Shown: one piece after another, positions 6,083 to 64,000 of the stretch
How the letters are laid out: each line of letters starts with the position of its first letter
Numbering within the stretch: position 1 is the stretch's first letter
Assembly (NCBI GenBank): GCA_963742955.1
Contig: CAVUOA010000009.1
Coordinates: forward strand, 754,596-818,595
DNA from: Ignavibacteriota bacterium
GTDB taxonomy: Bacteria; Bacteroidota; Ignavibacteria; Tepidaquicellales; OLB5
Length of the DNA stretch: 64,000 nt
Reading direction: 5' to 3'
Notes under the pieces: model-generated
Told to the model about the DNA's origin: nothing
Database searches by the model: none
The model's input: the letters and a program-made list of their open reading frames with translations, nothing else
Program-made: the position numbers and the translations under genes

Positions 6083-6367
6083 TCATTCCCGCGAAGGCGG
6101 GAATCCAGTCAGCATTTCAAAATTAAAAAAAATTTAAAATTGTTTACTGTGAAAACCAAAGCCGTATCTAACTGATACAGACCTTCAGGAGGATGAAGGA
6201 ATCCGGATGGAGGAATTATAAAGATTTTTATACTCTCACTATCGCAAATATTCTAAAACGCATATAGAGCGTTTATAGGGCTATATATGTATATAGCCTA
6301 TGGCGAATGTATCCTCTGGGGGTTAAAACGTCATCACGGGGCATTTATCGAAGAATTAGAGGTATTG
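6083..6367 (+). repeat. Intergenic repeat element, copy A (GC-rich hairpin plus 137-nt conserved core)
   Basis: Starts with the hairpin cattcccgc-gaag-gcgggaatcc. The core 6231-6367 matches 8378-8513 at about 115 of 137 positions by hand alignment. The core contains hairpins aaacgc/gcgttt and ggctatata/tatatagcc. Confidence 0.7.
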
Positions 6368-8278: not shown

Positions 8279-8513
8279 TCATTCCCGCAAATGCGGGAAT
8301 CCAATCAACATGCAAAAATTAACGGAATAACCCCGGATATAGTCAATCCTCAACATTTCAAAAAACGACCCTACATTTACTCTCATTATTACAACTATTC
8401 TAAAACGCATATAGAGCGTTTATAAGGCTATATATGTGTATAGCCTATTGCAATGTATCCCAGCGGACTGAAAACCTCACCTCGGGGCATTTACGGAAGA
8501 ATTAGAGGCATTG
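8279..8513 (+). repeat. Intergenic repeat element, copy B
   Basis: Starts with gtcattcccgc-aaat-gcgggaatcc and carries the core 8378-8513. It is co-oriented with copy A. Confidence 0.7.
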
Positions 8514-49756: not shown

Positions 49757-51163
49757 CTATATCAGTTTCTTCCATTTTTCCCGCCATGATTCTGATTTAC
49801 GTTTTCCCTTACTTCCGCGGTCATCTTTTCTGTTGGGGTTCTCATTTCTTTGTTCATCTTTTATGCGGTCATCATTTCTAATAGTGTTTTCATTCCTTCT
49901 TTCACGGTGTTCATCTCTTCTGTTGGAATGTTCATCTCTTCTGCTGGAATGTTCATCTCTTCTGTTTGGTTGTTCCCTTCTTCGCTGCGGTTGTTCATTC
50001 CTTCGCTGCGGCGGTCTGTGACGTGTATCATCGGATATGTTCTGAACGCTCTTCGGCAGGTCAGCAGTATTAACTGTTTTCAATGTAATCACTCCGCGGT
50101 AGGTAAATAAAATCTGTTTGAAGAACTTCTGCTCTTCGCCGCCGGTGACAAGCGATATCGCTTCGCCTTTTTTGCCCGCCCGGGCTGTTCTTCCAACGCG
50201 GTGTGTGTATGATTCAACGTCTTTAGGGATTTCGTAGTTGTAAACGTGAGTGATATCTTCTATATGCAGTCCGCGTGATGCAACATCGGTTGCAATCAGC
50301 ACGCTGATGCGCTTATGGCGGAACGCCTCCGTAACACGCTCACGCTGGCTCTGTGACATATCGCCGTGAAGGCAATCTGCTTTCACTCCGTTATCGGTAA
50401 GCTTCTTTGCAAGCTTGGATGTAGAATATTTTCTGTTGCAGAAAACAAGCGCGAGGTCGCGTTCATGCTTAAGCAAATAAACCAGCAGCGGCAATTTAGC
50501 TTCTGGAGTGGTTTGGTAATATGTCTGATGCAGGAACTCCGGCTTTACGGCGGAATCAAGCTTCACATTCACGGGGTCGGTGAGGTATTTGCGGCTTAGC
50601 TGCGCAATTTCTTTCGATACCGTTGCGCTGAAGAGCATCGTCTGCCTCTTCTGCGGCATAAGCTTTAATATGCGCTCGATATCTTTTATAAAACCCATAT
50701 CCAGCATCCTGTCTGCTTCATCGAAAACGAGGAAGCGGATTTTATCAAGTCTAAGCGCGCGCCGTTCGAGCAGGTCAAGCAGCCTGCCCGGCGTGGCAAT
50801 TACTATGTTTGTACGCCGGAGTTTCCTTACCTGGTTTTCAATCGATACGCCGCCATAGACAGCCGTTACACCGAGATGTTTGCCCGCAGAAAATTTCGTG
50901 AACTCGCCTGTGATTTGCACGCAAAGCTCACGCGTCGGGACAAGTACAAGTGTGGTTAATCCATCACCTGCGGTAGTTGCCTCAATTATCGGAACGGCAA
51001 AACTTATTGTCTTGCCCGAGCCGGTTTCCGATTGCGCAAGTATATCACGCCCCGCGGTTATGGCGGGTATTATTTGTTTCTGTATGGGTGTTGCTACCGT
51101 AATCCCGTGCTTCTCCAGCAGGGATACCATCGGTTTGCTTAATTTAAACGATTCTGATTTCAT
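49757..51163 (-). CDS. DEAD-box ATP-dependent RNA helicase with a basic repetitive C-terminal tail
   Basis: Motif I AQSETGSGKT, VFDEADRML, SAT and HRVGRTARAGKKG. The tail contains RRDEHSSRRDEHSNRRDEHRERR. Confidence 0.93.
   Translation of the reverse strand: MKSESFKLSKPMVSLLEKHGITVATPIQKQIIPAITAGRDILAQSETGSGKTISFAVPIIEATTAGDGLTTLVLVPTRELCVQITGEFTKFSAGKHLGVTAVYGGVSIENQVRKLRRTNIVIATPGRLLDLLERRALRLDKIRFLVFDEADRMLDMGFIKDIERILKLMPQKRQTMLFSATVSKEIAQLSRKYLTDPVNVKLDSAVKPEFLHQTYYQTTPEAKLPLLVYLLKHERDLALVFCNRKYSTSKLAKKLTDNGVKADCLHGDMSQSQRERVTEAFRHKRISVLIATDVASRGLHIEDITHVYNYEIPKDVESYTHRVGRTARAGKKGEAISLVTGGEEQKFFKQILFTYRGVITLKTVNTADLPKSVQNISDDTRHRPPQRRNEQPQRRREQPNRRDEHSSRRDEHSNRRDEHRERRNENTIRNDDRIKDEQRNENPNRKDDRGSKGKRKSESWREKWKKLI
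49908..50010 (-). repeat. In-frame 21-nt tandem repeats encoding the helicase tail
   Basis: Three units gttcatctcttctgytggaat (RRDEHS-S/N) followed by two units ttgttcmyttcttcgctgcgg (PQRR-x-EQ). Confidence 0.8.
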
Positions 51164-51169
51164 TTATTA

Positions 51170-51299
51170 CCTGTATTTTAACTTTCTTTTGTGTCATTGC
51201 GAGCGGAGCGAAGCAATCTCTGCTTAATAAACTTTACAAACTTTATGAACTTTATGAACTTTATGAACTATTTTACTTACACAAGATACTCTTTACTGC
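51170..51299 (+). repeat. Composite repeat module, left copy (DR-L)
   Basis: cctgtattttaactttcttttgtgtcattgcgag-cggag-cgaagcaatctc, then the 9-bp VNTR, then aactattttacttacacaagatactctttactgc. It is a direct repeat of 53111-53268. Confidence 0.8.
51230..51268 (+). repeat. 9-bp tandem repeat AACTTTAYR, about 4 units
   Basis: aactttaca, then aactttatg x3, then a partial unit. Confidence 0.85.
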
Positions 51300-51592
51300 T
51301 TCGGCATACAAGGTGAATGAGTACGGACCGGGTGGAGAGCGTGCTCTTATTAAAGTCTTTTGTCATTCACGCATAGGTTTCAAACATCGCTTTAGATAAC
51401 CTTCGCGGGAATTATAGTGAGAAGATTTGCTTTTCAATATTTACGCTAATTGCTTATATTAAGACTGATTATTTATAAACATCAGTAGGCTTAGGTTAGC
51501 GAAACAGGCTTCGGTACAGCACGCCATATGGTTCAGGTGCAGATACAGTAAATACCTTACTGCTTCCCGAGTTATCGGCAGAAAGGATATAT

Positions 51593-52900
51593 ATGAAACT
51601 ATTACTGGTTTCACCCTGCAGGGATGAAAACATCCGCTTCGCGCATTCACTCCGCATTCCTCAAATTTCACTTAACATTATTGCTTCGCTTACACCGCCT
51701 AATTACGATATAAAAATTGTTGAAGAAGAAGTCGGACCTGTTAACCTCGATGAAGATTGTGATATTGTGGGCATCAGCACAATGACTTCAAACGCTCCGA
51801 GAGCATACCGCATGGCAGATGAGTTTAAAAAGCGGGGCAAAACAGTTATACTGGGCGGCGTTCACCCGACCGTACTGCCCGAGGAGGCAAAACTTCATGC
51901 AGACTCCGTTGTAATCGGCGAAGCGGAAGATACATGGGGCGCGCTGCTGAACGATTTTGAACAGGGCACGCTGCAGAAATTTTATAAATCAAACCACCCG
52001 GATGTTTCGCATTACCCGCTTCCGAAGCGTGAGCTCTCACCGAAAGCTAAAGCATTGTTCGATGTTAAGCCGATTGTAACAACACGCGGGTGTCCGTATG
52101 ACTGCGATTTCTGCGCCGTCCCGAAATTCTTCGGCAGAAAGCTGCGCTCACTTCCTGTTGAAAAAGTCGTTTGCGATATTAAAGCATCCAAAGGGAAAAT
52201 TTTTCTTTTCCTCGATGATAATATTATCGGCTCTCCGAAATATGCAAAGGAGCTGTTCAAAGCAATCGAACCGCTCAATATAAAGTGGGTGGGGCAGGCA
52301 TCCATGTCATTTGTGAAAGATACCGAGCTTATGCGCCTTGCCGCCAAAAGCGGGTGTACGGTGCTCTTCTTCGGACTGGAGTCGGTTTCGACTAAAGCGC
52401 TTAAGCGCATGGGCAAATCAATTAAACAGCTCGAAGCAAACGCAGATGCAATAAAAAAAATTAAGGATTTCGGAATTGTGTTTCATGCGTCCATGGTGTT
52501 CGGTTTCGATGAGGAAGAGAAATCTATCTTTTCTGAAACGCTCGAATTTCTTGTAAAGAATAAAATTGCAACCGTATCATTCAACATTCTTACGCCATAC
52601 CCGGGCACACGGATTTATGACCGCTTTAAAAGCGAGGGCAGGCTGCTCACTGAAGACTGGAAATTCTATGACCATAACTCGGTTGTCTTTAAACCAAAGA
52701 ACATGACGCCCCGGGAGCTTCTTGAAGGACACCTTTGGGCTCGGAAACATTTCTACTCGCTCGGCTCAATTGCAAAACGATTCACAGGAACGCTCCGCCA
52801 TCCACTGCTTTACACTGCGATGAATCTGGGATACAGAAAAAGCATTAAGCTCGATACCGATAACCTTGGTAACGAGATATTGCGGTTACATGCAGCATGA
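51593..52900 (+). CDS. B12-binding-domain radical SAM protein (substrate unknown)
   Basis: N-terminal Rossmann-like cobalamin-binding region (DIVGISTMTSNAPRAY...VILGGVHPT) and the radical SAM cluster motif TTRGCPYDCDFC. It looks visibly GC-richer than its surroundings. Confidence 0.88.
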   Translation: MKLLLVSPCRDENIRFAHSLRIPQISLNIIASLTPPNYDIKIVEEEVGPVNLDEDCDIVGISTMTSNAPRAYRMADEFKKRGKTVILGGVHPTVLPEEAKLHADSVVIGEAEDTWGALLNDFEQGTLQKFYKSNHPDVSHYPLPKRELSPKAKALFDVKPIVTTRGCPYDCDFCAVPKFFGRKLRSLPVEKVVCDIKASKGKIFLFLDDNIIGSPKYAKELFKAIEPLNIKWVGQASMSFVKDTELMRLAAKSGCTVLFFGLESVSTKALKRMGKSIKQLEANADAIKKIKDFGIVFHASMVFGFDEEEKSIFSETLEFLVKNKIATVSFNILTPYPGTRIYDRFKSEGRLLTEDWKFYDHNSVVFKPKNMTPRELLEGHLWARKHFYSLGSIAKRFTGTLRHPLLYTAMNLGYRKSIKLDTDNLGNEILRLHAA

Positions 52901-52936
52901 AATACCGGGCGGAGGATGTCCCAAATTCTCAGGGTT

Positions 52937-52957
52937 ATTCCGGACTTGGTCCGGAAT
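52937..52957 (+). terminator. Perfect 9-bp stem hairpin 37 nt after the radical SAM stop
   Basis: attccggac-ttg-gtccggaat. No clear U-tract follows, so it is either a terminator or a REP-like element. Confidence 0.35.
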
Positions 52958-53027
52958 CCGATTATATATATAATTGTGTTGTATTGGTCCGCGGTTGGCA
53001 GAAAGCCGAAGATAACCATTCCTGAAC

Positions 53028-53096
53028 GCCTGCCTGTCTATCTATCTGCAATAGGCAGACAACAGGTAGACCTGCTGCAGGCAGGGAGTCGAAGGA
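53028..53096 (+). repeat. 69-bp inverted repeat, left arm (IR-a L)
   Basis: gcctgcctgtctatctatctgcaataggcagacaacaggtagacctgctgcaggcagggagtcgaagga. Its reverse complement occurs at 58791-58859 with one mismatch. Internally it can fold (cctgcctg/caggcagg, tctgc/gcaga, cagg/cctg). Confidence 0.9.
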
Positions 53097-53110
53097 CAAT
53101 TCTTACTTTT

Positions 53111-53268
53111 CCTGTATTTTTAACTTTCTTTTGCGTCATTGCGAGTGCAGCGAAGCAATCTCAACTTAATAAACTTTACGAACTTTACGAACTTTACAAA
53201 CTTTATGAACTTTACGAACTTTACGAACTTTATAAACTATTTTACTTACCCAAGATACTCTTTACTGC
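53111..53268 (+). repeat. Composite repeat module, right copy (DR-R)
   Basis: Same architecture as 51170-51299, with the cattgcgag REP at 53135-53162 and a longer VNTR. Confidence 0.8.
53172..53238 (+). repeat. 9-bp tandem repeat AACTTTAYR, about 7 units
   Basis: aactttacg x2, aactttaca, aactttatg, aactttacg x2, aactttata, then a partial unit. Confidence 0.9.
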
Positions 53269-53294
53269 CATGCTATAAGAAGAAGAATTTTTGC

Positions 53295-53331
53295 CACCCC
53301 GATGTTTATCCCCGATGCATACGGGACAGGC
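53295..53331 (+). repeat. ccgat-hairpin repeat (IR-b L)
   Basis: ccaccccgatgtttatccccgatgcatacgggacaggc. Its rc matches 58622-58660 at about 34/39 positions. Confidence 0.6.
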
Positions 53332-53461
53332 TGGGCAGGCACAGAGGAATTTGTAATAGTAAAGTCGCAGGATATTTTACTTTTATAAGTTGTGAGAAAT
53401 GAGTAAATTAGAAATTATTGACCACAAAGACACAAAGGCACAAAGTAAAACACAAAAATAA

Positions 53462-56400
53462 ATGGCTTCACTTGAATCTGCCTACGAAAATGTATCAAAA
53501 CTTGTTGAGGATTTTAAAAACAACGAGCAATACTACATCACACCTAAATACTCAGAGGCACAGGTAAGAAAAGACTATCTCGATAAATTTTTTATTGCGC
53601 TCGGGTGGGACGTTAACCATGATGAACAAAAAGACCCTTACCGGCAGGAAGTAAAAGTAGAAAAAGCTGTTGCAGTTGAAAGTGCATCAAAGCGGGCGGA
53701 TTATGCATTTTACCTTTCACCAAATTTCAGAGAACCGGTTTTTTATGTTGAAGCCAAAAAACCCGCGCATGACCTTCTGAACCCATATTATTATTTTCAG
53801 GCAATCAGGTACGGATGGAATGCAAAACACCTGTGATTATTCTAACCGATTTTGAGGAATTTCATATTATCGATTCAAGATACAAGCCGAATATTAAAAC
53901 TGCCGTTGACAGAAAGCTCCAGCAATATCATTATACCGATTATCTTGATAAAGAGAAATTCGCAAAAATCTATTATTTGTTTTCGCGTGAATCAGTAGAA
54001 AGCAACAGCATTGGAAATTATGCCGATGCGCTTAAAAAAATCAGGGGTAAAGCAATTCGAAAAGGCGCGCTGGCGGGTATTTACAAAAGTATTGATGAAT
54101 CTTTCTTAGAAGAGCTTGATGAAATCAGAGACCACCTTGCAAAAGCGTTCAAAAAAAATCAAACCCCAATCTTGAAAGTGATGAACTTACCGAAGCAGTT
54201 CAAGTTACCATAGACAGACTTGTTTTTATAAGATTCCTTGAAGCAAAACTTATTGAAGGGGAATCTCATATAAGTCACGACGTCTCTAATCATAAGGCGG
54301 CTATTTAAGAAAAGGTACAGTATGGAAAGAATTTTATAACAGACAGCAGAGCGCTTGATGCAAAATATAATGGAATTGTTTTTAAACAGCACAATATAAT
54401 TGATACTGAAGGATTTAATGCACCGGATGACAAAGTTTTCGGTGATATATGCAAGGAACTTTCGCAGGAAGACTCGCCTTATGATTTCAATTTAATTCCA
54501 ATTCATATACTCGGCTCTATATATGAGCGTTTTCTAGGAAAAGTTGTACATGCAACTGATAAACATGTAAAGATTGAAGAAAAACCCGAAGTAAGAAAGG
54601 CAGGCGGAGTTTATTACACTCCGCAGTATATAGTAAAATATATTGTTGATAACACTATAGGTAAGCTGATTGAAGGCAAATCGCCGAAAGAAATTTCAAA
54701 GCTGCGCTTTGCCGATATTTCATGCGGAAGCGGCTCGTTCCTGATTACTGTTTTTGATACACTGTTGAGTACATTGGCAAATGGTATCAATCGCACCCTG
54801 ATACAGCTAAAAAAGACGGCGGCAGATTAAATAACGGGATGTGGGTTTTATCACTTCACCAAAAACGTGACATCCTGCTCAAAAAATATTTACGGTGTTG
54901 ATATAGACTACCAGGCGGTTGAGGTAACACAGCTTTCATTATTTTTAAAACTGCTTGAAGATGAAACACTTGCAACCGCGCAGGAAATGCAAACTTTATT
55001 TAAAGAAAGAATACTGCCTGATTTAAGCAAAAATATTGTTTGCGGCAACTCGCTTATTCGGAACAGATATTTCTTCCGGCTCTCTGTTTGATTCTGATGA
55101 AGAAAGAAAAATTAATGCAAGGGGAACTGAGGATAGGTTCCCCGCATATTTTTCACTCTTATAAAGGGGGCAAGAGAGATGACGGTTCCCCCTTATAAAG
55201 GGGGTCAGGGGGATGGAGCAAACCGAGGTTTTGATGCGATTATAGGAAATCAACCATATGTTAATATTTAGTATGTTGATAAAATTACAAAAGATTATTT
55301 GAAAGAAAAATATAACGTATATGCTGGGAAAGCAGACTTACTATATTTTTTCTTCGAGAAGGCATTAAAGATCTTAAAAAAAGATTCTTTTTTAGGTTTA
55401 ATTACTTCAAGATATTTTGTAGAAGCTACTGATGCAAAACCATTAAGAAAATATATAAAGAAAATGAAAATATTGTAGAATTTATAGATTTTAAAGATCA
55501 TAGTGTTTTCAAAGGTATCGGTATCCATTCAATAATATCAATTATAGAAAAAAATAAAATTAAATTGACAAAAATAAAACTAATAAAGTCAATTATTGAG
55601 CATCCTATTATAGATGAAAAGAATTTTGATATTTTTACGATTACTTTAAATAATGAAGATTGGACGTTTACAAACAAAGTTGAAAAAGTATTGTTTGAAA
55701 AATTAAATACAATATCTAACAGACTTGGAGACCTTGCAACAATAGAACAAGGACAGAAATCAGGTCTTAATCATGTTTTTGGTATTGACTATGAACTTGC
55801 AAATCGGTTGGAAAAAGAACCACTAAGAAAACTTATCAAAAATAGTCATATAAAAAGATATTACGCTAATTACAAAGATATGTATTTGATATATGCAGAT
55901 TCTAATTTTAACTTAGACGACTATCCTAAAATAAAAAATTACCTATTACAATTCAAAAAGGAGCTAATTGCACGTGCAGAAGCTAAAGACTATCTATATC
56001 CGTGGTATAGGTTACAAAGACCACGTGATAAAAAATTGTTTGATGCTAAAGAAAAAATTATCGTTCCATATAGAGCAGAATATAATAAATTTGCGTATGA
56101 TGACAAACAATACTTCAATGACGGGGGTGATATTAGAATAATAGTAATAAATAAGAATGAAGATTATGGAACAAAATTCTGTTTAGGTATCTTGAACTCC
56201 AGACTTAATGAACTTCTATTATCAGTTTATTGGTAGAAGAAAAGGTAAAATGTTAGAATATTTCGTCGAGCCTCTTGCAAAAATTCCAATTATTAAAATT
56301 AATTTTTCTAATCTTGCTCAAAAATCCCAGCACGATAAATTGGTATCACTAGTTGACCAGATGCTTGAGGCAAAGAAGAATCAAATGGAATCAACTACCG

Positions 56401-56522
56401 AGCGCGATAAATCATTTTGGGAAAACAAATGCAGCTCGCTTGATAAGCAAATAGACTCTCTGGTTTACGAGCTTTACGGTTTGACCGAAGAAGAAATAAA
56501 GATAGTGGAAAATAATAACTAA
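53462..56522 (+). pseudogene. Type IIG restriction-modification enzyme (Eco57I/PglX-like), heavily disrupted: N-terminal PD-(D/E)xK nuclease, gamma-class N6-adenine methyltransferase and TaqI-like C-terminal specificity domain
   Basis: Nuclease RADYAF...YVEAKKP and LTDFEEFHIID. MTase motifs AGGVYYTPQYIV (~54600), DISCGSGSFL (~54711), NIYGVDIDYQAVEV, CGNSLI and GFDAIIGNQPY (55227-55259). TRD LGDLATIEQGQKSGLNHVF and tail LVYELYGLTEEEIKIVE. About eight frame changes plus in-frame stops at 54306-54308 and 55269-55271. Confidence 0.85.
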
Positions 56523-56535
56523 AATAAAATACATC

Positions 56536-56871
56536 ATGGCAACAAGAATTTTACATTGCGGAAAAAATATTGAAAATTACAATATTTGTGTGGATGAAAA
56601 AGTTGCTGGGTTCACAGCGGGTGGTCCATCTACTGGTGATTTAATTTATCTGGTTGTAAGAGTTGGAAAAAAATCACTTTGTGGGGCAAGATTCACATTA
56701 AATGAAATTACTGATTATAAGCCTTGGCCAGACTCTGAAAATTACGTTCTGAGTTATACTATACAAAATATTGAATACTGTAAACCATTTGATATTTCAG
56801 TACTGGCTGGACCAGGTGGCCCATTGGGCGTTAAAATACTTGCAAGCAGCAAAAGAAATCAAAGAACATGA
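56536..56871 (+). CDS. EVE/PUA-like small beta-barrel domain protein (possibly the 5' part of a longer frameshifted gene)
   Basis: MATRILHCGKNIENYNICVDEKVAGF...GDLIYLVVRVGKKSLCGARFTLNEI...YVLSYTIQNIEY resembles archaeal/bacterial EVE domains by eye. The domain-like sequence continues in the +1 frame (WALKYLQAAKEIKEHDAVDLL). It starts 14 nt after the RM stop. Confidence 0.45.
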   Translation: MATRILHCGKNIENYNICVDEKVAGFTAGGPSTGDLIYLVVRVGKKSLCGARFTLNEITDYKPWPDSENYVLSYTIQNIEYCKPFDISVLAGPGGPLGVKILASSKRNQRT

Positions 56872-57041
56872 TGCAGTAGACTTACTAAACTCGCAATTCA
56901 ATTCAAATAAAGCAGATATATTTCTTTCCACATGCTGAATCTCCACAACCAGCAGCACCTGAAGAGAACATTTACGAAATTGAAAATGAAAAAGAATTTG
57001 CAAAAGCATTAAAAGAAGATCCTGACCTAAAAATCAACATA

Positions 57042-57776
57042 ATGGGGACTTTCCAGACAATAAATTTTACTAACGAAAATGATATTGTAAGAGGACTCGA
57101 AAAGCTTGTAAATGAAAATTTTTACATGTTATTTCAGCAATTTCCCGAAGATAAATCCATTTTGATACCTGATAACCGGAAGTTTTTTACTCGTCATGTA
57201 AAAAAAGACGAAACGTATGTTGCAGGTGTAAGTGGTATACCAGACGCTTTATTAATATTATTTAACAAAAGAGATCCCATACAAATCAATTTAATTGAAT
57301 ACGAGTGTTATGGTGAGAATAAAACCAGATCATCTGCAAAATCGGATTACTTAAATACGCATATTATACCGCAGCTAATGAGATTTGCGGCAACTTTCAG
57401 TATTATTACCGAGCAATTTACGCGAGACAACGCAATTAAAGACTGGATAAGCAAAATAATAAAATACATTAATGAAAATCCAGATCTTGAAAAGAAGTTC
57501 ACACAATGGGTAAAAGAAATCAATCCCCTTATTAGAGAAAAAGCTATTGATCTCGAAATAACAAAGTTGCTTGAATCGGCTTTCAAAAAAAATCTTCGTG
57601 TCATGCTAATCATTGATGAATTAACATCAGAGCAAAAATCAACTATCAGAAATGTAATAAATTCATTCAAGCTTGGAAACGAAAAAGGCGTTGATTTTGA
57701 AGGATATGTAATAAAACTTATTCAGAGTATAAGGATAAATGATAAAGAAGCTGAGTACGCTTTAACAGTACAATAA
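57042..57776 (+). CDS. Putative PD-(D/E)xK-like nuclease-fold protein, unknown family
   Basis: Candidate core ETYVAGVSGIPD68ALLILFNKRDPIQINLIE86YE88CYGENK94. The reading frame is open for 51 codons upstream of the first ATG (from 56889). Confidence 0.4.
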   Translation: MGTFQTINFTNENDIVRGLEKLVNENFYMLFQQFPEDKSILIPDNRKFFTRHVKKDETYVAGVSGIPDALLILFNKRDPIQINLIEYECYGENKTRSSAKSDYLNTHIIPQLMRFAATFSIITEQFTRDNAIKDWISKIIKYINENPDLEKKFTQWVKEINPLIREKAIDLEITKLLESAFKKNLRVMLIIDELTSEQKSTIRNVINSFKLGNEKGVDFEGYVIKLIQSIRINDKEAEYALTVQ

Positions 57777-57792
57777 TAAAAAATAATATTTT

Positions 57793-58398
57793 ATGATTTT
57801 TGCTTTATATAATTGTTTTCAGTATTATCTTGGTTTAGGTATGTACTCACCAAAAAAACTTCTTGCTCAAGGTGCAATGCTAGCATCACCACATCTTTTA
57901 AATAATCCAGACATGTTTCATACTGGAGATATATATCTACTTCATACTCGTTATTCTTTTTTAAGCTGGCTAGTCATGTATTATGAGCCATCACCTTGGT
58001 CACATACAGGTACAATTTCCCAGAATAAAAATTCCATTGATGCAACAACTTCGGGTGTAATTGAGCATCCAATATCAGATTATTTAGATAATAAATCTTA
58101 CATATTGATATATAGACCTAATGTTAATACAGAAAACTGTGAAAATTCAATAAACAAAATGCGTTCACAATTTCTTGGTATGCAATATGGTTGGAGAACG
58201 GTGTTTTACATATTTTTGGTAACCGTATATAACAAAAAAAGAAGTTACAGAATTAAATACACATTAGATTTTTTATTCATTATTTTTTTAATTAATTTAA
58301 TTTTCCAGAATAATACAATTTTTTGGATTAGTCTAATCTTTTCTGTTTTTAATATTCTAATAATTTTATGGAATGGGTTTAGGGGAAGATATAATTAG
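57793..58398 (+). CDS. Membrane-anchored YiiX-like (permuted papain/NlpC-P60, C92-type) protein
   Basis: GDIYLLHTRYSFLSWLV...PWSHTGTI...ATTSGVIEHPISDYL resembles the His-bearing half of YiiX-family proteins. No downstream CSE-type Cys motif is seen. The C-terminus consists of predicted TM helices and is extremely AT-rich. Confidence 0.4.
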   Translation: MIFALYNCFQYYLGLGMYSPKKLLAQGAMLASPHLLNNPDMFHTGDIYLLHTRYSFLSWLVMYYEPSPWSHTGTISQNKNSIDATTSGVIEHPISDYLDNKSYILIYRPNVNTENCENSINKMRSQFLGMQYGWRTVFYIFLVTVYNKKRSYRIKYTLDFLFIIFLINLIFQNNTIFWISLIFSVFNILIILWNGFRGRYN

Positions 58399-58540
58399 CC
58401 AATATCAGTTCTAAAGTCTTTTTATTTTTCAGTCCCAGCTGAGTCTATCGCAGCCTGTCTGCAAAAGGCAGAAGGACTCAGCGAAAACATACACACTTTG
58501 CCGCTTCGTGCCCTCTCTCCCGGTGTAAAAAAGATTTTCT

Positions 58541-58574
58541 GAGATTGCTTCGGTCGTTCCTCCCTCGCAATGAC
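58541..58574 (-). repeat. cattgcgag...cgaagcaatctc REP, inverted copy
   Basis: gagattgcttcggtcgttcctccctcgcaatgac is the rc of the motif found at 51193-51220 and 53135-53162. Confidence 0.6.
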
Positions 58575-58621
58575 AAATACCTTTTTTGTGTTTTTCCCTG
58601 TGCCCCTGCTGCTCTGTCGGA

Positions 58622-58700
58622 GCCTGTCCCGATATGCATCGGGGCTAAACATCGGGGCGGTTCCATTCGACGGAGTTTATCCCGATATACATCGGGGCTC
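58622..58700 (-). repeat. ccgat-hairpin repeats (IR-b R, two units)
   Basis: gcctgtcccgatatgcatcggggctaaacatcggggcgg, followed by ttatcccgatatacatcggggctc. Confidence 0.6.
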
Positions 58701-58790
58701 AGGATTTTACCTCTCTTTGAGACTGCCGCGCCGCGCATCCATCCCCCTCCGAAGGAGTCCTTTGGACTATCCCCCTTTAGTAAGGGGGAA

Positions 58791-58859
58791 TCCTTCGACT
58801 CCCTGCCTGCTGCAGGTCTACCTGTTGTCTGCCTATTGCAGATAGATAGACAGGCAGGC
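58791..58859 (-). repeat. 69-bp inverted repeat, right arm (IR-a R)
   Basis: Reverse complement of 53028-53096 with 68/69 identity (hand-checked). It is preceded by small hairpins ctcc-gaa-ggag, agtcc-ttt-ggact and ccccctt-tagt-aaggggg. Confidence 0.9.
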
Positions 58860-59611
58860 AATGACACACTTACTATATTTTTTTATACTGTTTTATCAGT
58901 ACCTTATGAAAATAATACTTGACTTTCGGGATTTTCCGTTTTAGATTTATGACCAGGATTATCAGGATTTATCTGATTAATCAGATTAATCAGATTTATC
59001 AAATTGATATTCGCGTTAATTCGTGAAATTCGTGTGAACGGTTCTTTAAAAAACATCAAAAACATGCAAAAAATCAAATGGCGGTATGAAACTGCAATTC
59101 CGGCTTAGAATCGTTATATTTTATTTAGTTACCCCCCTAATTCAGGGGTTTAAACATTTTAAAATCAACCGGTTGGAAAGCTCATAGGTAACTTAGTTAC
59201 CCCCCATACCATATAGTCAGATAGTAAAATGGGTAAACAGATAAATTGATAATTGGAATATAAAATGATTAGAAGATTAAATAATTGGAAGATATGATAA
59301 TGCGTGAATAAATGAAAAAAATATGCGGAATCAATAAAACCGGGTTAATCTGCGGTTCAGACAGTTTTGGAAAACCGCAATTTTGGGGCACTTTCATAAC
59401 TTGTTTTGAGAAAAAGTGCATTTAAAGGTCACTTTCATAACTTAACGTAACTTGAAGTTATGGGGGTGGGGTGTTAAAAACGGTCTGCCCCGGGGATAAA
59501 CTTAAAGAAACCAAAGAACTTTCCAAAAACATGACGTTTATCATTTTAAATACTTAAGAAAATCATTAATATTGTACTGTCCGTTAATCTTATTGAAGGA
59601 GTTACATAACG
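58860..59611. repeat. Gene-free repeat-dense tract
   Basis: ctgattaatcagattaatcagattt repeats at 58965-59000. ttagttacccccc occurs twice (~59125, ~59202). ataattgga occurs twice (~59249, ~59280). cactttcataactt occurs twice (59388, 59429). Hairpin cataactt-N11-aagttatg (59433-59461). No ORF of 60 aa or more. Confidence 0.5.
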
Positions 59612-60019
59612 ATGACATTCAAGGAATTATTAAAAACCAATCTTGATAAAATTTTATTTGACGCAACAGAATTTCTGTCGCGTTCAACACTCGAGCATTA
59701 TAACCAGATGAACGCCGAGCGTCTCCGCGCCAAGCTTGCGCGCCTCTACTACGTTGCCCGCGAGTGCGCCGAATCAGGCAGAATAGAACCGATGAAAAAA
59801 TACATCGGCGAAATTGCGCCTAACAGGTTCGATTCCGGTTTTGAGCTTTATGAAGTACAAACCGCAATTAACATACTTGAAGAATGCTTTTGGAAAAATA
59901 TAGTTGAAAAAGTTGACCCGGCAGAAAAAATGCCGGCTCTTGTAAAGACACAGGAAATTCTGTGCGCAGCAAAAAATACGCTGGCAAAATCATACCTTGA
60001 GTTGAAAAAAGAAGCTTGA
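59612..60019 (+). CDS. Hypothetical cytoplasmic alpha-helical protein
   Basis: 135-aa ORF with a GGAG RBS at 59598-59601. It has GC-richer, coding-like composition. No motif recognised. Confidence 0.55.
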   Translation: MTFKELLKTNLDKILFDATEFLSRSTLEHYNQMNAERLRAKLARLYYVARECAESGRIEPMKKYIGEIAPNRFDSGFELYEVQTAINILEECFWKNIVEKVDPAEKMPALVKTQEILCAAKNTLAKSYLELKKEA

Positions 60020-60097
60020 GACCTTCCATTGCCGGAGTTATGGGAGGCTGTTCCTTCTGCCCGTTCTCCGGCATCAAGCTTCAATATTATAAAAAAA

Positions 60098-60119
60098 GGC
60101 GGTGAGATAAATCGCCGCC
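60098..60119 (-). terminator. Rho-independent terminator of pckG (possibly bidirectional)
   Basis: ggcggtga-gataaa-tcgccgcc, with a T7 run after it on the minus strand. Confidence 0.75.
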
Positions 60120-60144
60120 CTTTGAAAATTAAGCTAAATCTGTT

Positions 60145-61926
60145 CTAATCTTTCGAAAACCTTTTCTCCTGCGCATCAAGCTCTGCAGTGAGTTCCTTCG
60201 GTAAGTGGTCGCCGAAAATTTTGTAGTATTCGCGCATCTCTTCAATTTCACGCAGCCCGTCTTCCTTGTTTACAGAAAAGAGCTTCTGCATCGTTTCACG
60301 TGTTACATCCAGCCCTGTAATGTCGAAGCCGTCAACATCGGGCAGCCTGCCGATTGGAGTTTCAACAAACTTGCCGGCGCCGTTAACACGTTCAAGAGCC
60401 CACTTCAGCGCGCGGATATTATCACCGTAACCCGGCCACATAAATTTACCGTTCTCATCTTTACGGAACCAATTCACATAGAAAATCTTCGGAAGCTTAT
60501 CGGGAGAAGATTTTTTGCCAATCTCAATCCAGTGTTTAAAATAATCTCCCATGTTGTATCCGCAGAAAGGCAGCATTGCAAACGGGTCATGGCGCAGCTT
60601 GCCGATAGTTCCTGCAGCAGCTGCGGTCATCTCCGATGATGAAGACGAACCCATATAGACGCCGTGGTTCCAGCTGTATGACTCGTTAACCAGCGGCACA
60701 ACAGAAGCTCTCCTCCCGCCGAAGAAGAACGCGGAAATCGGAACGCCTTTCGGGTCTTCCCATGCGGGGTCAATCACCGGGCACTGTGAAGCCGGCGCCG
60801 TAAACCTGGAATTGGGATGAGATGATACACGTCCTGCGTCGGGTGTCCAGTCTTTTTTGTTCCAGTCTGTTAAGTGGGCGGGTTTCTCGTCGGTCATTCC
60901 TTCCCACCAGACATCGCCGTCATCTGTATAAGCAACATTGGTAAAAATCGAGTTCTTTGTCATGGAAAGCATTGCATTGGCGTTGGTCTTCATCGAAGTG
61001 CCTGGCGCCACACCGAAGAATCCGTACTCGGGATTAATTGCGTGCAGTCTGCCGTCATCGCCGAACTTCATCCACGCAATATCATCGCCTACTGTTTCAA
61101 CTTTCCAGCCTGGAAGTGAAGGTGTAAGCATCGCGAGATTGGTTTTACCGCATGCAGATGGAAACGCCGCTGCAATATATTTCTTCTCGCCGCCCGGAGG
61201 TGTTAAACCGAGAATGAGCATGTGCTCAGCAAGCCATCCCTCATCACGGGCAAGAACAGATGCGATTCTCAGTGCGAAGCACTTCTTACCGAGCAGCGCA
61301 TTACCGCCGTAACCGCTTCCGTATGACCAGATGCTGCGCTCTTCGGGGAAATGAACAATATACTTTGTTGTGTTACACGGCCATGTTACATCCTTCTTCC
61401 CATCGGTTAACGGGTAGCCAACCGAATGCAGGCACGGAACAAATTCACCGTTGTCACCGAGTACATCAAGGACTTTCTTCCCCATGCGCGTCATGATGCG
61501 CATATTCAGCACAACATAAATTGAATCGGTAAGCTCTACACCAATGTGCGAAATCTTCGAGCCGAGCGGTCCCATGCTGTAGGGAATAACATACATTGTG
61601 CGTCCCTTCATAGAACCGGTAAAATGTTCTTTTAAAATTTTCTTCATCTCGACGGGGTCCATCCAGTTGTTTGTGGGACCGGCATCGATTTTATTTTTTG
61701 CGCAGATGAAAGTTCTGTCTTCAACTCTGGCTACGTCGTTCGGGTCTGAAACAACCCAGTAGCTGTTCGGTCTTTTTTTCAGCGGAACAAACTGTCCGCT
61801 CTTTACTGCCTGGCTGATGAGCCTTTGGTTTTCCTCATCCGAGCCGTCACACCAGTAAACAGAATCAGGCTGGCACATATCTGCCATTTCCTTAACCCAG
61901 TTGAGCAATTTTTGATTTTTTGTCAT
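60145..61926 (-). CDS. pckG: Phosphoenolpyruvate carboxykinase (GTP)
   Basis: 593 aa with [13 protein letters not shown] (P-loop), [13 protein letters not shown] and YFGVAPGTS, typical of GTP-PEPCK. Confidence 0.95.
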
Positions 61927-62968: not shown

Positions 62969-63859
62969 ATGGCTAACAAAATAACAGGAACAGGCACAGC
63001 ATTAATAACTCCTTTCAAGAAAAACGGCGCGGTGGATGAACATGCGCTAAGGGAACTTGTCGATTGGCAGATTAAAAACAAAGTTGAATTCCTCGTCCCC
63101 TGCGGTTCAACCGGTGAATCCGCTACTATGACACGCGGTGAACGGCGCGCTGTTATTGAAATGGTTTTGGACCAGGCTAACGGGAGAGTGCCGATTGTTG
63201 CAGGAACCGGCACTAACTCAACTACAGATTCAATACACATGACAAAAGATGCCAAACAGATTGGCGTTGATACCGTTTTGCTCGTGGGTCCGTATTACAA
63301 CAAGCCGACACAGGAAGGTTACTACCAGCACTTCAGAAAGATTGCGGAAGAGTGCGATGTGAAAGTTGTTCTGTATAACGTGCCGGGCAGAACTGGAAGC
63401 AATATACTGCCCGAAACAACACTGCGTCTTGCCGAAGAAGTGAAGAACGTAATCGCAGTAAAAGAAGCTTCAAATAACATAGAGCAGATTATGCAGATTA
63501 TTAAGCACAGACCAAAAGGGTTTGCGCTGCTCTCGGGTGAGGATTCATTTACATTGCCAATCATTGCTTCCGGCGGTGACGGTGTAATAAGCGTTGTCTC
63601 GAACGAAGTGCCGAAAGAGTTTAGTGACATGGTAAGATTTGCTTTAGCCGGCAATATGAAGAAAGCGCAGGAGATGCATTACAAGTTGTTCGGATTAATG
63701 AGAGCAAATTTTATTGAATCAAATCCAATCCCTGTTAAAGCGGCGCTTACCATGATGGGAAAAATCGAGGAGTATTACCGCCTGCCGTTAGTGAAAATGT
63801 CGAAAACAAACAGGGATAAGCTGAGGAAGATTTTGAAGGAATTGAAGCTGGTAAAATAG
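62969..63859 (+). CDS. dapA: 4-hydroxy-tetrahydrodipicolinate synthase
   Basis: GTALITPF, CGSTGESATMT, YNVPGRTG and IAVKEAS (Schiff-base Lys). The ATG at 62969 is preferred over the track's GTG at 62942. Confidence 0.95.
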   Translation: MANKITGTGTALITPFKKNGAVDEHALRELVDWQIKNKVEFLVPCGSTGESATMTRGERRAVIEMVLDQANGRVPIVAGTGTNSTTDSIHMTKDAKQIGVDTVLLVGPYYNKPTQEGYYQHFRKIAEECDVKVVLYNVPGRTGSNILPETTLRLAEEVKNVIAVKEASNNIEQIMQIIKHRPKGFALLSGEDSFTLPIIASGGDGVISVVSNEVPKEFSDMVRFALAGNMKKAQEMHYKLFGLMRANFIESNPIPVKAALTMMGKIEEYYRLPLVKMSKTNRDKLRKILKELKLVK

Positions 63860-64000
63860 TACGATTATAATCCCTTGCCTGCAGCAATTCTATTTGGCGA
63901 AAACAGGCAAGTACAAAAGGTGGAAATCTAGTCAGCTGGCTTGTACCCAGCACTTACCACAAAGCCATAAATGATAAATAAATATTTTTTTGATTGAATC

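What the first reader, a model, noticed from the sequence alone, without database searches (positions are those of the whole stretch)
53028..58859. Near-perfect 69-bp inverted repeats bracket a 5.8-kb restriction/defence islet
53028-53096 and the reverse complement of 58791-58859 are identical at 68/69 positions (hand-checked). The single mismatch lies in a central quasi-palindrome. Inside each arm, further repeat modules recur in inverted orientation: the ccgat hairpins 53295-53331 vs 58622-58660, and the cattgcgag REP 53135 vs 58541. Everything between the arms is RM- or nuclease-related and compositionally heterogeneous. The IR itself can fold into a three-stem structure. Such IRs could mark the ends of a non-autonomous mobile element. 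They could also mediate inversion of the segment, or be recombination hot spots where defence cassettes are exchanged. No recombinase is encoded in the window.
Basis: partly seen in the sequence, partly recalled or inferred. Interest (0 to 1): 0.7.

Follow-up and report, generated by a model that had tools for sequence, protein, structure and literature searches.

The report
REP-like repeats flank variable defence islet
The two near-identical 69-base inverted repeats are real, but they are copies of a small palindromic repeat family scattered between genes in Ignavibacteria-type genomes, sitting at the edges of a strain-variable slot holding decaying restriction genes, not the ends of a 5.8-kb transposon.

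Summary
Arms 53028-53096 and 58791-58859 match at 68/69 and fold into a three-stem structure. The ccgat and cattgcgag modules also recur inverted.

The arms are not unique ends of a mobile unit. Their roughly 40-nt core, GCCTGCCTGTCTAC-N2-5-CAGGTAGACCTGC[W]GCAGGCAGG, is a dispersed palindromic family. It has a third, diverged copy in the window (63870-63918) and 38 loci in Ignavibacteria, Chlorobiota and Kapaibacterium MAGs and metagenomes. These copies are nearly all between genes, unpaired, beside ordinary genes and without target duplications. The single arm mismatch is the family's polymorphic W.

Each arm is the outer end of a mosaic repeat cluster (433 bp left, 284 bp right). No target-site duplication flanks the 5.8-kb segment, and the window encodes no recombinase.

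The locus is a variable defence slot. Related species have rSAM followed directly by ORF138, or by a lone methyltransferase. One closer relative has only a 300-bp repeat cluster with no cargo and no 69-mer. Co-occurring strains carry another type IIG allele or an AlwI-type RM set.

The cargo here is decaying: a type IIG pseudogene and a frameshifted gene with a YTH/EVE-like domain.

Verdict: a REP-like family at a defence hot spot, a new member of known kinds, of modest interest.

The parts
53028..53096 (+). Left 69-nt arm. It is a long variant of the roughly 40-nt palindromic family (extra inner hairpin ATCTATCTGCAATAGGCAGAC plus tail GAGTCGAAGGA), with W = T.
58791..58859 (-). Right 69-nt arm, 68/69 identical to the left arm, with W = A. 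It is absent at the same junction in strain L003 and in the near-empty site of L051.
63870..63918 (-). Third, diverged short-form family copy, 11 nt after the DHDPS stop. It has compensatory changes in the outer stem (C-G to T-A) and the inner hairpin. It lies where L003 and the window lose homology again (63855).
53028..53460 (+). Left mosaic repeat cluster: 69-mer, nested element B, ccgat module, and the block GGCACAAAG..AACACAAAAA abutting the RM start codon.
58576..58859 (-). Right mosaic repeat cluster: 69-mer, cccctt hairpin, ccgat single and double modules, and the block GGCACAGGGAAAAACACAAAAAA. With 58860-58866 it forms the 291-bp segment absent from L003, bounded by the 9-bp direct repeat GCAATGACA (58567-58575 and 58858-58866).
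53112..53272 (+). Element B (GTCATTGCGAG repeat, 9-bp tandem AACTTTAYG x8, and a tail). It is a direct repeat of 51170-51300, so the two copies bracket the rSAM gene.
51170..51300 (+). Element B copy with 4 tandem units, starting beside the DEAD-box helicase start codon (51163, minus strand).
58541..58574 (-). GTCATTGCGAG...CGAAGCAATCTC repeat at the inner edge of the right cluster. It is 100% identical over 39 nt to the repeat that directly abuts the flank in L003.
53462..56522 (+). Type IIG (Eco57I/MmeI-like) RM pseudogene with at least 3 frameshifts, several in-frame stops, NPPY changed to NQPY, and a duplicated hairpin repeat at 55152-55215. The allele differs from strain L002: 74% nt identity at the 5' end, 73% in the middle, 70-84% in the target-recognition part, then 100% from about 56400.
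56536..57776 (+). Two fragments (56536-56871 and 57042-57776) of one gene of about 416 aa. The N-terminal domain models as a YTH/EVE-like fold. The gene is frameshifted here and in L002. A role as a modification-dependent nuclease is an inference.
57793..58398 (+). 201-aa ORF of unknown function, with a sub-threshold Peptidase_C92 match. It is identical in L002.
58860..59525 (.). Low-GC (32%) non-coding right flank with its own short repeats. Strains L002, L003 and relative L051 share it, but more distant relatives lack it. It is the constant right border of the variable slot.

Best explanation
The two arms are copies of a REP-like extragenic palindromic repeat. Each sits at the outer end of a mosaic cluster of several small palindromic repeat families. 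This resembles the BIME clusters of enterobacteria, a comparison I make from my own knowledge.

The clusters occupy the long non-coding DNA on both sides of a strain-variable defence slot between the rSAM gene and ORF135/PEPCK, in an Ignavibacteria-type chromosome.

The 5.8 kb between the arms is not a transposable unit. It holds decaying defence genes. I infer that this cargo entered, and is replaced, in two ways: by homologous recombination in the conserved flanks and within the genes, and by illegitimate or short-homology events at the repeat heads.

Shown here:
- The arms belong to a dispersed family.
- The family's copies are extragenic.
- There is no target-site duplication around the 5.8-kb segment and no recombinase in the window.
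- Empty and alternative-cargo states of the slot exist.
- The identity pattern between strains is mosaic.
- The cargo genes are pseudogenes.

Inferred:
- The family spreads by a REP/RAYT-type, hairpin-dependent mechanism that leaves no target duplication.
- The inverted orientation of the two arms is incidental.
- The near-identity of the arms reflects a recent copy or gene conversion.
For: 1. Dispersed family. The 23-nt core CAGGTAGACCTGCWGCAGGCAGG has 6 exact hits in GTDB genomes: three contigs of one Chlorobiota MAG, two Ignavibacteria MAGs and one Kapaibacterium MAG. It has 32 exact hits in JGI metagenome contigs.
2. The unconstrained 5' half GCCTGCCTGTCTAC is conserved in nearly all copies.
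3. A covariance model finds a third, diverged copy in the window at 63870-63918, E = 1e-8.
4. 33 of 35 distinct copies overlap no ORF of at least 120 aa. They lie in any orientation to their neighbours, and many sit at contig ends.
5. Neighbouring genes are ordinary ones such as an NTP transferase, UvrC and MFS/POT transporters.
6. The only other inverted pair (L031) brackets a single ATP-grasp-like gene.
7. Copies carry no flanking direct repeats and are often nested in the loops of other GTCATT-type repeats.
8. The arm mismatch is the family's W position, 18 T against 17 A.
9. The 3' half, GTAG-A-CCTGC-W-GCAGG, fits the published REP definition of GT[A/G]G followed by a palindrome (PMC3686654).
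10. The two ends share three collinear blocks but carry different nested inserts.
11. The repeat blocks are 51% GC. That is nearer the roughly 43-44% of the surrounding chromosome than the 28-37% of the cargo, and far from the cargo.
12. The right 69-mer is missing in L003, where the GTCATT repeat abuts the flank directly. It is also missing in L051, where the cccctt hairpin lies 7 nt from the flank.
13. The slot is empty in relatives, holds only a methyltransferase in others, and holds AlwI-type cargo in L003.
14. Window and L002 are 100% identical over about 56400-60450 but 70-84% identical inside the RM gene, so the recombination end points lie inside genes and not at the arms.
15. No recombinase was found among the ORFs scanned.
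Against: - The full 69-nt variant was seen only as this pair, and as the identical right arm of strain L002. Its genome-wide copy number is unknown because the rest of the 1.17-Mb source contig could not be read.
- The arms are 99% identical while the neighbouring shared modules are 93% and about 80% identical. This could mean selection or concerted evolution acting on the pair.
- The homology break between L003 and the window falls exactly at the outer edge of the right arm, with a 9-bp direct repeat. A second break lies 15 nt from the third copy. The repeats may therefore take part in cargo exchange and not be bystanders.
- No RAYT or other cognate enzyme was identified.
- Copy numbers seen per genome are low, at most 3 exact copies per MAG and 3 in this 64-kb window.
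Confidence: 0.65

Rival explanations
1. The repeat clusters, including the 69-mers, are the working recombination substrates of the hot spot. Cassettes are gained, lost and swapped by recombination between repeat copies or their GTCATT heads, possibly with help from an enzyme encoded elsewhere. On this reading the paired arms matter functionally, even though the 5.8 kb is not a transposon.
For: - The L003/window homology starts at 58858, the outer edge of the right arm. The 291-bp extra segment is bounded by the 9-bp direct repeat GCAATGACA, which is the head of the GTCATT repeat.
- The second L003/window break (63855) is 15 nt from the third family copy.
- The near-empty site L051 already carries ccgat, gagattgc and cccctt modules. 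Its pieces are homologous to both the left and the right clusters of the window, as if cargo had been inserted into a pre-existing cluster.
- The arms are 99% identical.
Against: - Only two junctions could be resolved.
- The break points between window and L002 lie inside genes, far from any repeat.
- Family copies elsewhere sit beside ordinary genes with no sign of variable cargo.
- No enzyme was found.
- Repeats may simply accumulate in long, dispensable intergenic DNA.
Confidence: 0.2
2. The 5.8-kb segment is a non-autonomous, transposon-like RM unit whose 69-bp arms are terminal inverted repeats mobilised in trans, as in the units described by Furuta, Abe and Kobayashi (2010).
For: - Long, near-perfect inverted repeats flank an RM gene.
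- Related genomes have an empty site.
- The cargo is compositionally foreign.
- Such units are documented, with 65-bp and 26-bp inverted repeats (PMC2853133).
Against: - There is no target duplication around the unit: CCTGAAC on the left and AATGACA on the right.
- The inverted repeats are not unique to the unit. There is a third copy in the window and a dispersed family elsewhere.
- The DNA absent from relatives (52901-59525) is larger than the IR-bounded segment.
- The right arm is missing in L003 and L051 while its neighbouring modules are present.
- The repeat blocks have a GC content nearer the chromosome's than the cargo's.
- No transposase is present, and there are no viral or plasmid copies.
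Confidence: 0.08
3. The inverted repeats mediate inversion of the segment, as a phase-variable or shufflon-like switch.
For: A 69-bp near-perfect inverted repeat is enough homology for RecA-dependent inversion (established knowledge; the repeat itself is).
Against: - No invertase or other recombinase is present.
- The other contig covering the cargo has the same orientation.
- All cargo genes are on one strand and are pseudogenes, so inversion would switch nothing.
- No promoter or terminator signal exceeds chance.
Confidence: 0.04

Closest known systems
REP / REPIN elements (repetitive extragenic palindromes mobilised by RAYT Y1 transposases; Nunvar 2013, PMC3686654; Bertels and Rainey 2011, PMC3116915)
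   Same: It is a short palindromic unit with a GTAG head followed by a palindrome. Copies are almost always extragenic, have no target duplication, and lie in any orientation to genes. Two GTAGA heads face each other within the unit, and copies are nested and clustered with other repeats. Contigs often break at copies.
   Different: No RAYT gene was found. The two halves are unequal, so this is not a clean REP doublet. The copy numbers seen are low. The same 23-mer is exact in MAGs labelled Ignavibacteria, Chlorobiota and Kapaibacterium, which is broader than is usual for one REP class. The window pair is a 69-nt variant with an extra nested hairpin.
BIMEs (bacterial interspersed mosaic elements: clusters of REPs with other short motifs in E. 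coli). This comparison is from my own knowledge.
   Same: The intergenic clusters are mosaics of several small repeat families (69-mer, ccgat, cattgcgag, cccctt, a 9-bp tandem). Order and orientation differ between copies, and the clusters lie at polymorphic intergenic sites.
   Different: The organism and the sequences are different. Binding by IHF or gyrase and any effect on mRNA were not tested.
Transposon-like RM units flanked by long inverted repeats (Furuta, Abe and Kobayashi 2010, PMC2853133)
   Same: An RM gene, here type IIG, lies between long inverted repeats, and related genomes have an empty site. The type IIG gene also shows allelic diversity in its target-recognition part.
   Different: In their clear cases the repeats are unique to the unit, and an 8-bp target duplication matches the empty site. 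Here the repeats belong to a dispersed family and no such duplication exists.
Defence-island hot spots: variable defence cargo between conserved core genes. This comparison is from my own knowledge.
   Same: The core flanks are the same (rSAM on one side, ORF135/PEPCK on the other). The slot has empty, methyltransferase-only, type IIG and AlwI-type/PDC states, and the identity pattern between strains is mosaic.
   Different: The slot is very small (0.2-6.7 kb), has no integrase, and is bordered by repeat clusters.

Membership tests
Transposon-like RM unit with terminal inverted repeats (Furuta 2010) | Long inverted repeats flank RM gene(s) | tested here: met
   69-nt arms, 68/69 identical, around a type IIG gene
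Transposon-like RM unit with terminal inverted repeats (Furuta 2010) | The repeats are unique to the unit and are not a multi-copy genomic repeat | tested here: not met
   A third copy lies at 63870-63918. The core occurs in 38 other loci, almost all unpaired.
Transposon-like RM unit with terminal inverted repeats (Furuta 2010) | A short target-site duplication flanks the whole unit and matches the empty site | tested here: not met
   The flanks are CCTGAAC and AATGACA. The only direct repeat, GCAATGACA, bounds a 291-bp sub-segment at the right end.
Transposon-like RM unit with terminal inverted repeats (Furuta 2010) | The empty site in a related genome coincides with the ends of the inverted repeats | tested here: inconclusive
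   Empty sites exist. On the right, L003 coincides with the arm edge. In more distant relatives the missing DNA is 52901-59525. The left junction was not recovered in any strain.
REP / REPIN | A 5' GT[A/G]G tetranucleotide followed by a palindrome | tested here: met
   GTAG-A-CCTGC-W-GCAGG in the 3' half, and GTAGACAGGCAGG on the other strand of the 5' half. The definition is from PMC3686654.
REP / REPIN | Extragenic location | tested here: met
   33 of 35 distinct copies overlap no ORF of at least 120 aa. All three window copies are intergenic.
REP / REPIN | Many copies per genome | not testable with these tools
   Only 64 kb of the source genome is readable, and it holds 3 copies. One MAG has 3 exact copies on 3 contigs. 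MAG assemblies lose repeats.
REP / REPIN | A cognate RAYT (Y1 transposase) gene flanked by the repeats | not testable with these tools
   No such gene was found among the ORFs scanned in the window, nor beside copies in six GTDB loci. A single-copy gene elsewhere in the genome cannot be excluded.
REP / REPIN | No target-site duplication on insertion | tested here: met
   No direct repeats flank the 38 aligned copies.
MITE derived from a DDE transposon | Terminal inverted repeats plus a target-site duplication of fixed length | tested here: not met
   The terminal 8-9 bp are inverted (CCTGCCTG and CAGGCAGG), but no copy has a target duplication.
Invertible segment (invertase or shufflon type) | An adjacent site-specific recombinase | tested here: not met
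   Pfam scans of the ORFs of at least 110 aa, plus the shorter ORFs of the finding's region, found none.
Invertible segment (invertase or shufflon type) | Both orientations present in a population | tested here: inconclusive
   Only one other contig spans the cargo, and it has the same orientation. No reads were available.
Defence hot spot between conserved core genes | The same core flanks with different or absent cargo in relatives, and cargo made of defence genes | tested here: met

The most novel reading that the evidence does not exclude
The roughly 40-nt palindrome may be the recognition site of an unidentified, trans-acting hairpin-specific enzyme (RAYT/HUH-like or other). On this reading, inverted pairs of it delimit units that the enzyme can capture, excise or exchange. 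The 69-mer pair would then mark a defence-cassette docking site, a repeat-guided route for RM turnover with no locally encoded recombinase.
Probability: 0.07. Interest if true: 0.65.

Novelty: new member of a known kind. Interest (0 to 1): 0.3.

Why it matters
The finding gives a concrete sequence definition of a REP-like repeat family in Ignavibacteria-type bacteria, a group in which I know of no such family having been characterised. It is a worked example of a very small defence slot with at least five observed states in nature: empty, repeat cluster only, lone methyltransferase, type IIG alleles, and an AlwI-type set.

It also serves as a caution. A long, near-perfect inverted repeat around RM genes is not by itself evidence of a transposon.

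If the minority reading is right and the repeats are the substrates of cassette exchange, the locus would be a tractable place to study repeat-mediated defence turnover.

Tried and rejected
- **Known RNA family:** Rfam scan of 51000-60200 at E up to 1 gave no hit on either arm. No tRNA or tmRNA genes occur in the window, so a tRNA-linked integration site is excluded.
- **First collection scans:** the 21-mer from the inner hairpin (CTGCAATAGGCAGACAACAGG) gave 0 hits in GTDB genomes and in JGI metagenomes. That hairpin is specific to the long variant. The second scans, with the 3' core, succeeded.
- **Exact-protein look-ups:** rSAM, PEPCK, the DEAD helicase and the copper protein were not on record. 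The source contig itself could not be retrieved, so no genome-wide census was possible.
- **Hypermutation:** I tested this as the cause of the 70-84% identity blocks. Substitutions are balanced, so these are true divergent alleles.
- **Sequencing error:** I tested this as the cause of the fragmented RM gene. It was rejected because there are in-frame stops caused by substitutions, a changed catalytic motif and a 34-nt repeat duplication.
- **Promoter and terminator scan:** counts were at chance.
- **Covariation in the family:** uninformative, because the 3' half was fixed by the search pattern. Only the third window copy offers compensatory changes.
- **Viral contigs and plasmids:** no copies.
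- **Integron attC and integrase att sites:** considered and rejected. Those are direct repeats and need a nearby integrase.
- **Function of the 244-aa, 201-aa and 135-aa ORFs:** PADLOC, NCBIfam, PHROGs and PDB sequence searches gave nothing usable.
- **Paper searches:** several timed out.

Full report
**Observation**

The inverted repeat is real. Arms 53028-53096 and 58791-58859 are 69 nt long, 68/69 complementary and 5694 nt apart. A 48-nt core matches only these two places in the 64-kb window, against none in 100 shuffles. The single mismatch is the centre of CCTGC[T/A]GCAGG. The 69-mer folds as single-stranded DNA into an outer stem with two inner hairpins, with z about -3.

The ccgat modules (53294-53321 and 58633-58660, 93%) recur inverted. 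So does the GTCATTGCGAG repeat (53135 plus strand, 58564-58574 minus strand), which has a third copy outside the arms at 51193.

The order of modules differs at the two ends. An alignment shows three shared collinear blocks, with different nested material between them:
- the 69-mer;
- the ccgat module with GGGACAGGCT;
- GGCACA..AAAACACAAAAA.

The left cluster (53028-53460, 433 bp) contains 'element B'. This is a GTCATTGCGAG repeat, a 9-bp tandem repeat and a tail. It is a 90% direct repeat of 51170-51300, so the two copies bracket the rSAM gene. The right cluster is 58576-58859 (284 bp).

**What lies between and around the arms**

- **53462-56522** is a type IIG (Eco57I/MmeI-like, HSDR_N...TaqI_C) gene broken into pieces. 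Compared with an intact homologue, it has at least three frameshifts, several in-frame stops, NPPY changed to NQPY, and a duplicated 30-nt hairpin repeat at 55152-55215. It is a real pseudogene and not a sequencing artefact.
- **56536-56871 and 57042-57776** are two fragments of one gene of about 416 aa. The gene belongs to a widespread family with no Pfam domain. An AlphaFold model has mean pLDDT 82, and its N-terminal domain resembles YTH/EVE modified-base readers (Foldseek E about 0.01, probability about 1). A role in modification-dependent restriction is an inference.
- **57793-58398** has no assignable function.
- **Flanking genes** are housekeeping: ClpC, a DEAD helicase and a B12-radical SAM enzyme on the left; ORF135, PEPCK, a T9SS-sorted copper protein and DHDPS on the right.
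- **Recombinases:** no transposase, integrase or invertase was found among the ORFs of at least 110 aa, plus the shorter ORFs of the finding's region that were scanned.
- **Composition:** the repeat blocks are 51% GC. That is nearer the 43-44% of the surrounding chromosome than the 28-37% of the cargo.

**The locus in other genomes**

- **Related species** (rSAM 88-89% aa identical; L007 to L012) have ClpC, DEAD, rSAM, a 193-bp spacer, ORF138, an M28 peptidase (seen in L007, L008, L010 and L011), then PEPCK. This is an empty site. Only the last 86 bp of that spacer align to the window (59526-59611). The lineage-specific DNA is therefore about 52901-59525, larger than the IR-bounded segment.
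- **Other relatives** hold only an M28 peptidase (L052) or a 270-aa N6_N4 DNA methyltransferase (L053-L057) in the slot.
- **The closest relative recovered** (L051, rSAM 90% aa) has the rSAM stop, then about 300 bp of ccgat, gagattgc and cccctt repeat modules, then the homologue of window 58870-59246. It has no cargo and no 69-mer. In L051 the cccctt hairpin lies 7 nt from the flank. In the window the 69-mer sits between them.
- **Strain contig L001/L002** (ENA sample ERZ25039495) carries the same cargo with a mostly intact type IIG gene of another allele. Nucleotide identity is 74% at the 5' end, 73% in the middle and 70-84% in the target-recognition part. It is then 100% from about 56400 to 60450, a stretch that includes the right arm.
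- **Strain contig L003** (same sample) has the same right flank at 96% identity but entirely different cargo: PDC-S18, an AlwI-like endonuclease, two D12-class methyltransferases and a PDC-S02-like protein.
- **The L003 junction.** L003/window homology begins at 58858, the outer edge of the right arm. In L003 the GTCATT repeat abuts the flank directly. The window has an extra 291 bp ending in the 69-mer, bounded by the 9-bp direct repeat GCAATGACA at 58567-58575 and 58858-58866. GCAATGAC is the head of the GTCATT repeat family. The direct repeat may therefore be a short-homology junction and not a target duplication.

**The arms belong to a dispersed family**

The inner-hairpin 21-mer had no hit anywhere. 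The 3' core CAGGTAGACCTGCWGCAGGCAGG did. It found 6 GTDB loci (three contigs of one Chlorobiota MAG, two Ignavibacteria MAGs, one Kapaibacterium MAG) and 32 metagenome loci.

The consensus is GCCTGCCTGTCTAC-(N2-5)-CAGGTAGACCTGC[W]GCAGGCAGG. W is T in 18 copies and A in 17, so the arm mismatch is the family's polymorphic site.

A covariance model finds a third, diverged copy in the window at 63870-63918 (E = 1e-8). It has compensatory changes, and it lies where L003 diverges again after DHDPS. The model finds no copy in the more distant relatives' loci.

Features of the copies:
- 33 of 35 are extragenic, in any orientation, and often at contig ends.
- Their neighbours are ordinary genes.
- The single other inverted pair (L031) brackets one ATP-grasp-like gene.
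- They have no flanking direct repeats and are often nested in the loops of GTCATTCCCGC- or GTCATTGCGAG-type repeats.
- Rfam (scanned over 51000-60200, both arms), viral contigs and plasmids hold nothing similar.

The window's 69-mer is a long variant with an extra nested hairpin and an 11-nt tail. L033 carries a similar long form.

**Interpretation**

The 3' half, GTAG-A-CCTGC-W-GCAGG, meets the published REP definition of GT[A/G]G followed by a palindrome (PMC3686654). The extragenic position, the lack of target duplication, and the nesting and clustering also fit REP/BIME-type repeats. A cognate RAYT gene and a high copy number could not be tested.

I compared the segment with the transposon-like RM units of Furuta et al. 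(PMC2853133). Two defining features fail: the repeats are not unique to the unit, and no target duplication brackets the unit. The same paper's allelic diversity in type IIG target-recognition domains is seen here.

The best reading (confidence 0.65) is that the arms are two copies of a REP-like element in mosaic repeat clusters bordering a variable defence slot. Cargo turnover then proceeds by homologous recombination, with end points inside genes, and by short-homology events at repeat heads.

A substantial minority reading (0.2) is that the repeat clusters are themselves the recombination substrates. It rests on two break points adjacent to family copies. A transposon reading (0.08) and an inversion switch (0.04) are disfavoured.

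**Limits**

- The rest of the source genome could not be read, so the copy number and pairing of the full 69-mer are unknown.
- The left junction in other strains was not recovered.
- No reads were available to test orientation.
- Covariation is uninformative, because the search fixed the 3' half.

**Verdict**

This is a new member of known kinds and of modest interest.

Noticed in passing
window 51170-51300 and 53112-53272: A direct repeat of about 130-160 bp ('element B': GTCATTGCGAG repeat, 9-bp tandem AACTTTAYG x4 against x8, and a conserved tail) brackets the conserved rSAM gene. The first copy starts right at the DEAD-box helicase start codon, so it may include that gene's leader. The second copy would then point leftwards into the left 69-mer.
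   Followed up: partly
L002:1550-1600; window 55152-55215: A small palindromic repeat (TTCCCCCTTAnTAAAGGGGG...), of the same family as the hairpin beside the right arm (58770-58790), lies in frame inside the intact type IIG ORF of strain L002 ('NLFPLNKGGTGDV', between motif X and NPPY). It is tandemly duplicated in the window's pseudogene. This recalls the in-frame palindromic element insertions of Rickettsia.
   Followed up: partly
L002:6850-8100 (equivalent to window 60450-61600): In strain contig L002 a 1.1-kb stretch inside PEPCK is only 67-77% identical to the window and to L003, and it is full of frameshifts. The DNA on both sides is 99-100% identical. The cause could be a pseudogenised import, an assembly chimera or something else.
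   Followed up: partly
window 56536-57776; proteins P0123 and P0210: A family of about 416 aa with no Pfam domain is widespread: Ignavibacteria, Bacteroidota, Bacillus, Paenibacillus and cyanobacteria, at 50-68% identity. It has a YTH/EVE-like N-terminal domain and an invariant PD...IEYECYG motif in the C-terminal domain. It may be an uncharacterised modification-dependent nuclease. It is frameshifted here.
   Followed up: partly
window 63855-64000; L003:10866-15358: A second strain-variable region starts right after DHDPS, beside the third repeat copy. There L003 carries a 173-aa ORF and a 1119-aa SF1 helicase with sub-threshold matches to the antiphage proteins ProA and Hhe, followed by another family copy nested in a GTCATTCCCGC repeat at the contig end.
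   Followed up: partly
L053:11486-12298 (also L054-L057): In another related species the same rSAM-PEPCK slot holds a lone 270-aa N6_N4 DNA methyltransferase in place of ORF135/138.
   Followed up: no
window 6231-6367 and 8378-8513: Another direct repeat of about 136 nt (79-91% identical, 2.1 kb apart) lies around the 6434-7831 gene. It is unrelated to the families studied here.
   Followed up: no
window 58860-59611: The 750-bp non-coding, 32% GC right flank has its own short repeats: gattaatc-type tandem units at 58960-59000, and direct repeats at 59105/59173, 59249/59281 and 59371/59412. Strains and L051 share it, but more distant relatives lack it.
   Followed up: no
window 58478-58867 (minus strand); L001:4913-5302: Gene callers annotate a 129-aa ORF that runs entirely across the repeat cluster (peptide ...SLRGRNDRSNL...). 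It is almost certainly spurious.
   Followed up: no
window arms; L031:5509 and 6636: In both inverted pairs seen, the two copies differ at W when read in element orientation. On the chromosome's plus strand they therefore carry the same centre base. The third window copy does not follow this pattern, so it is probably chance.
   Followed up: partly
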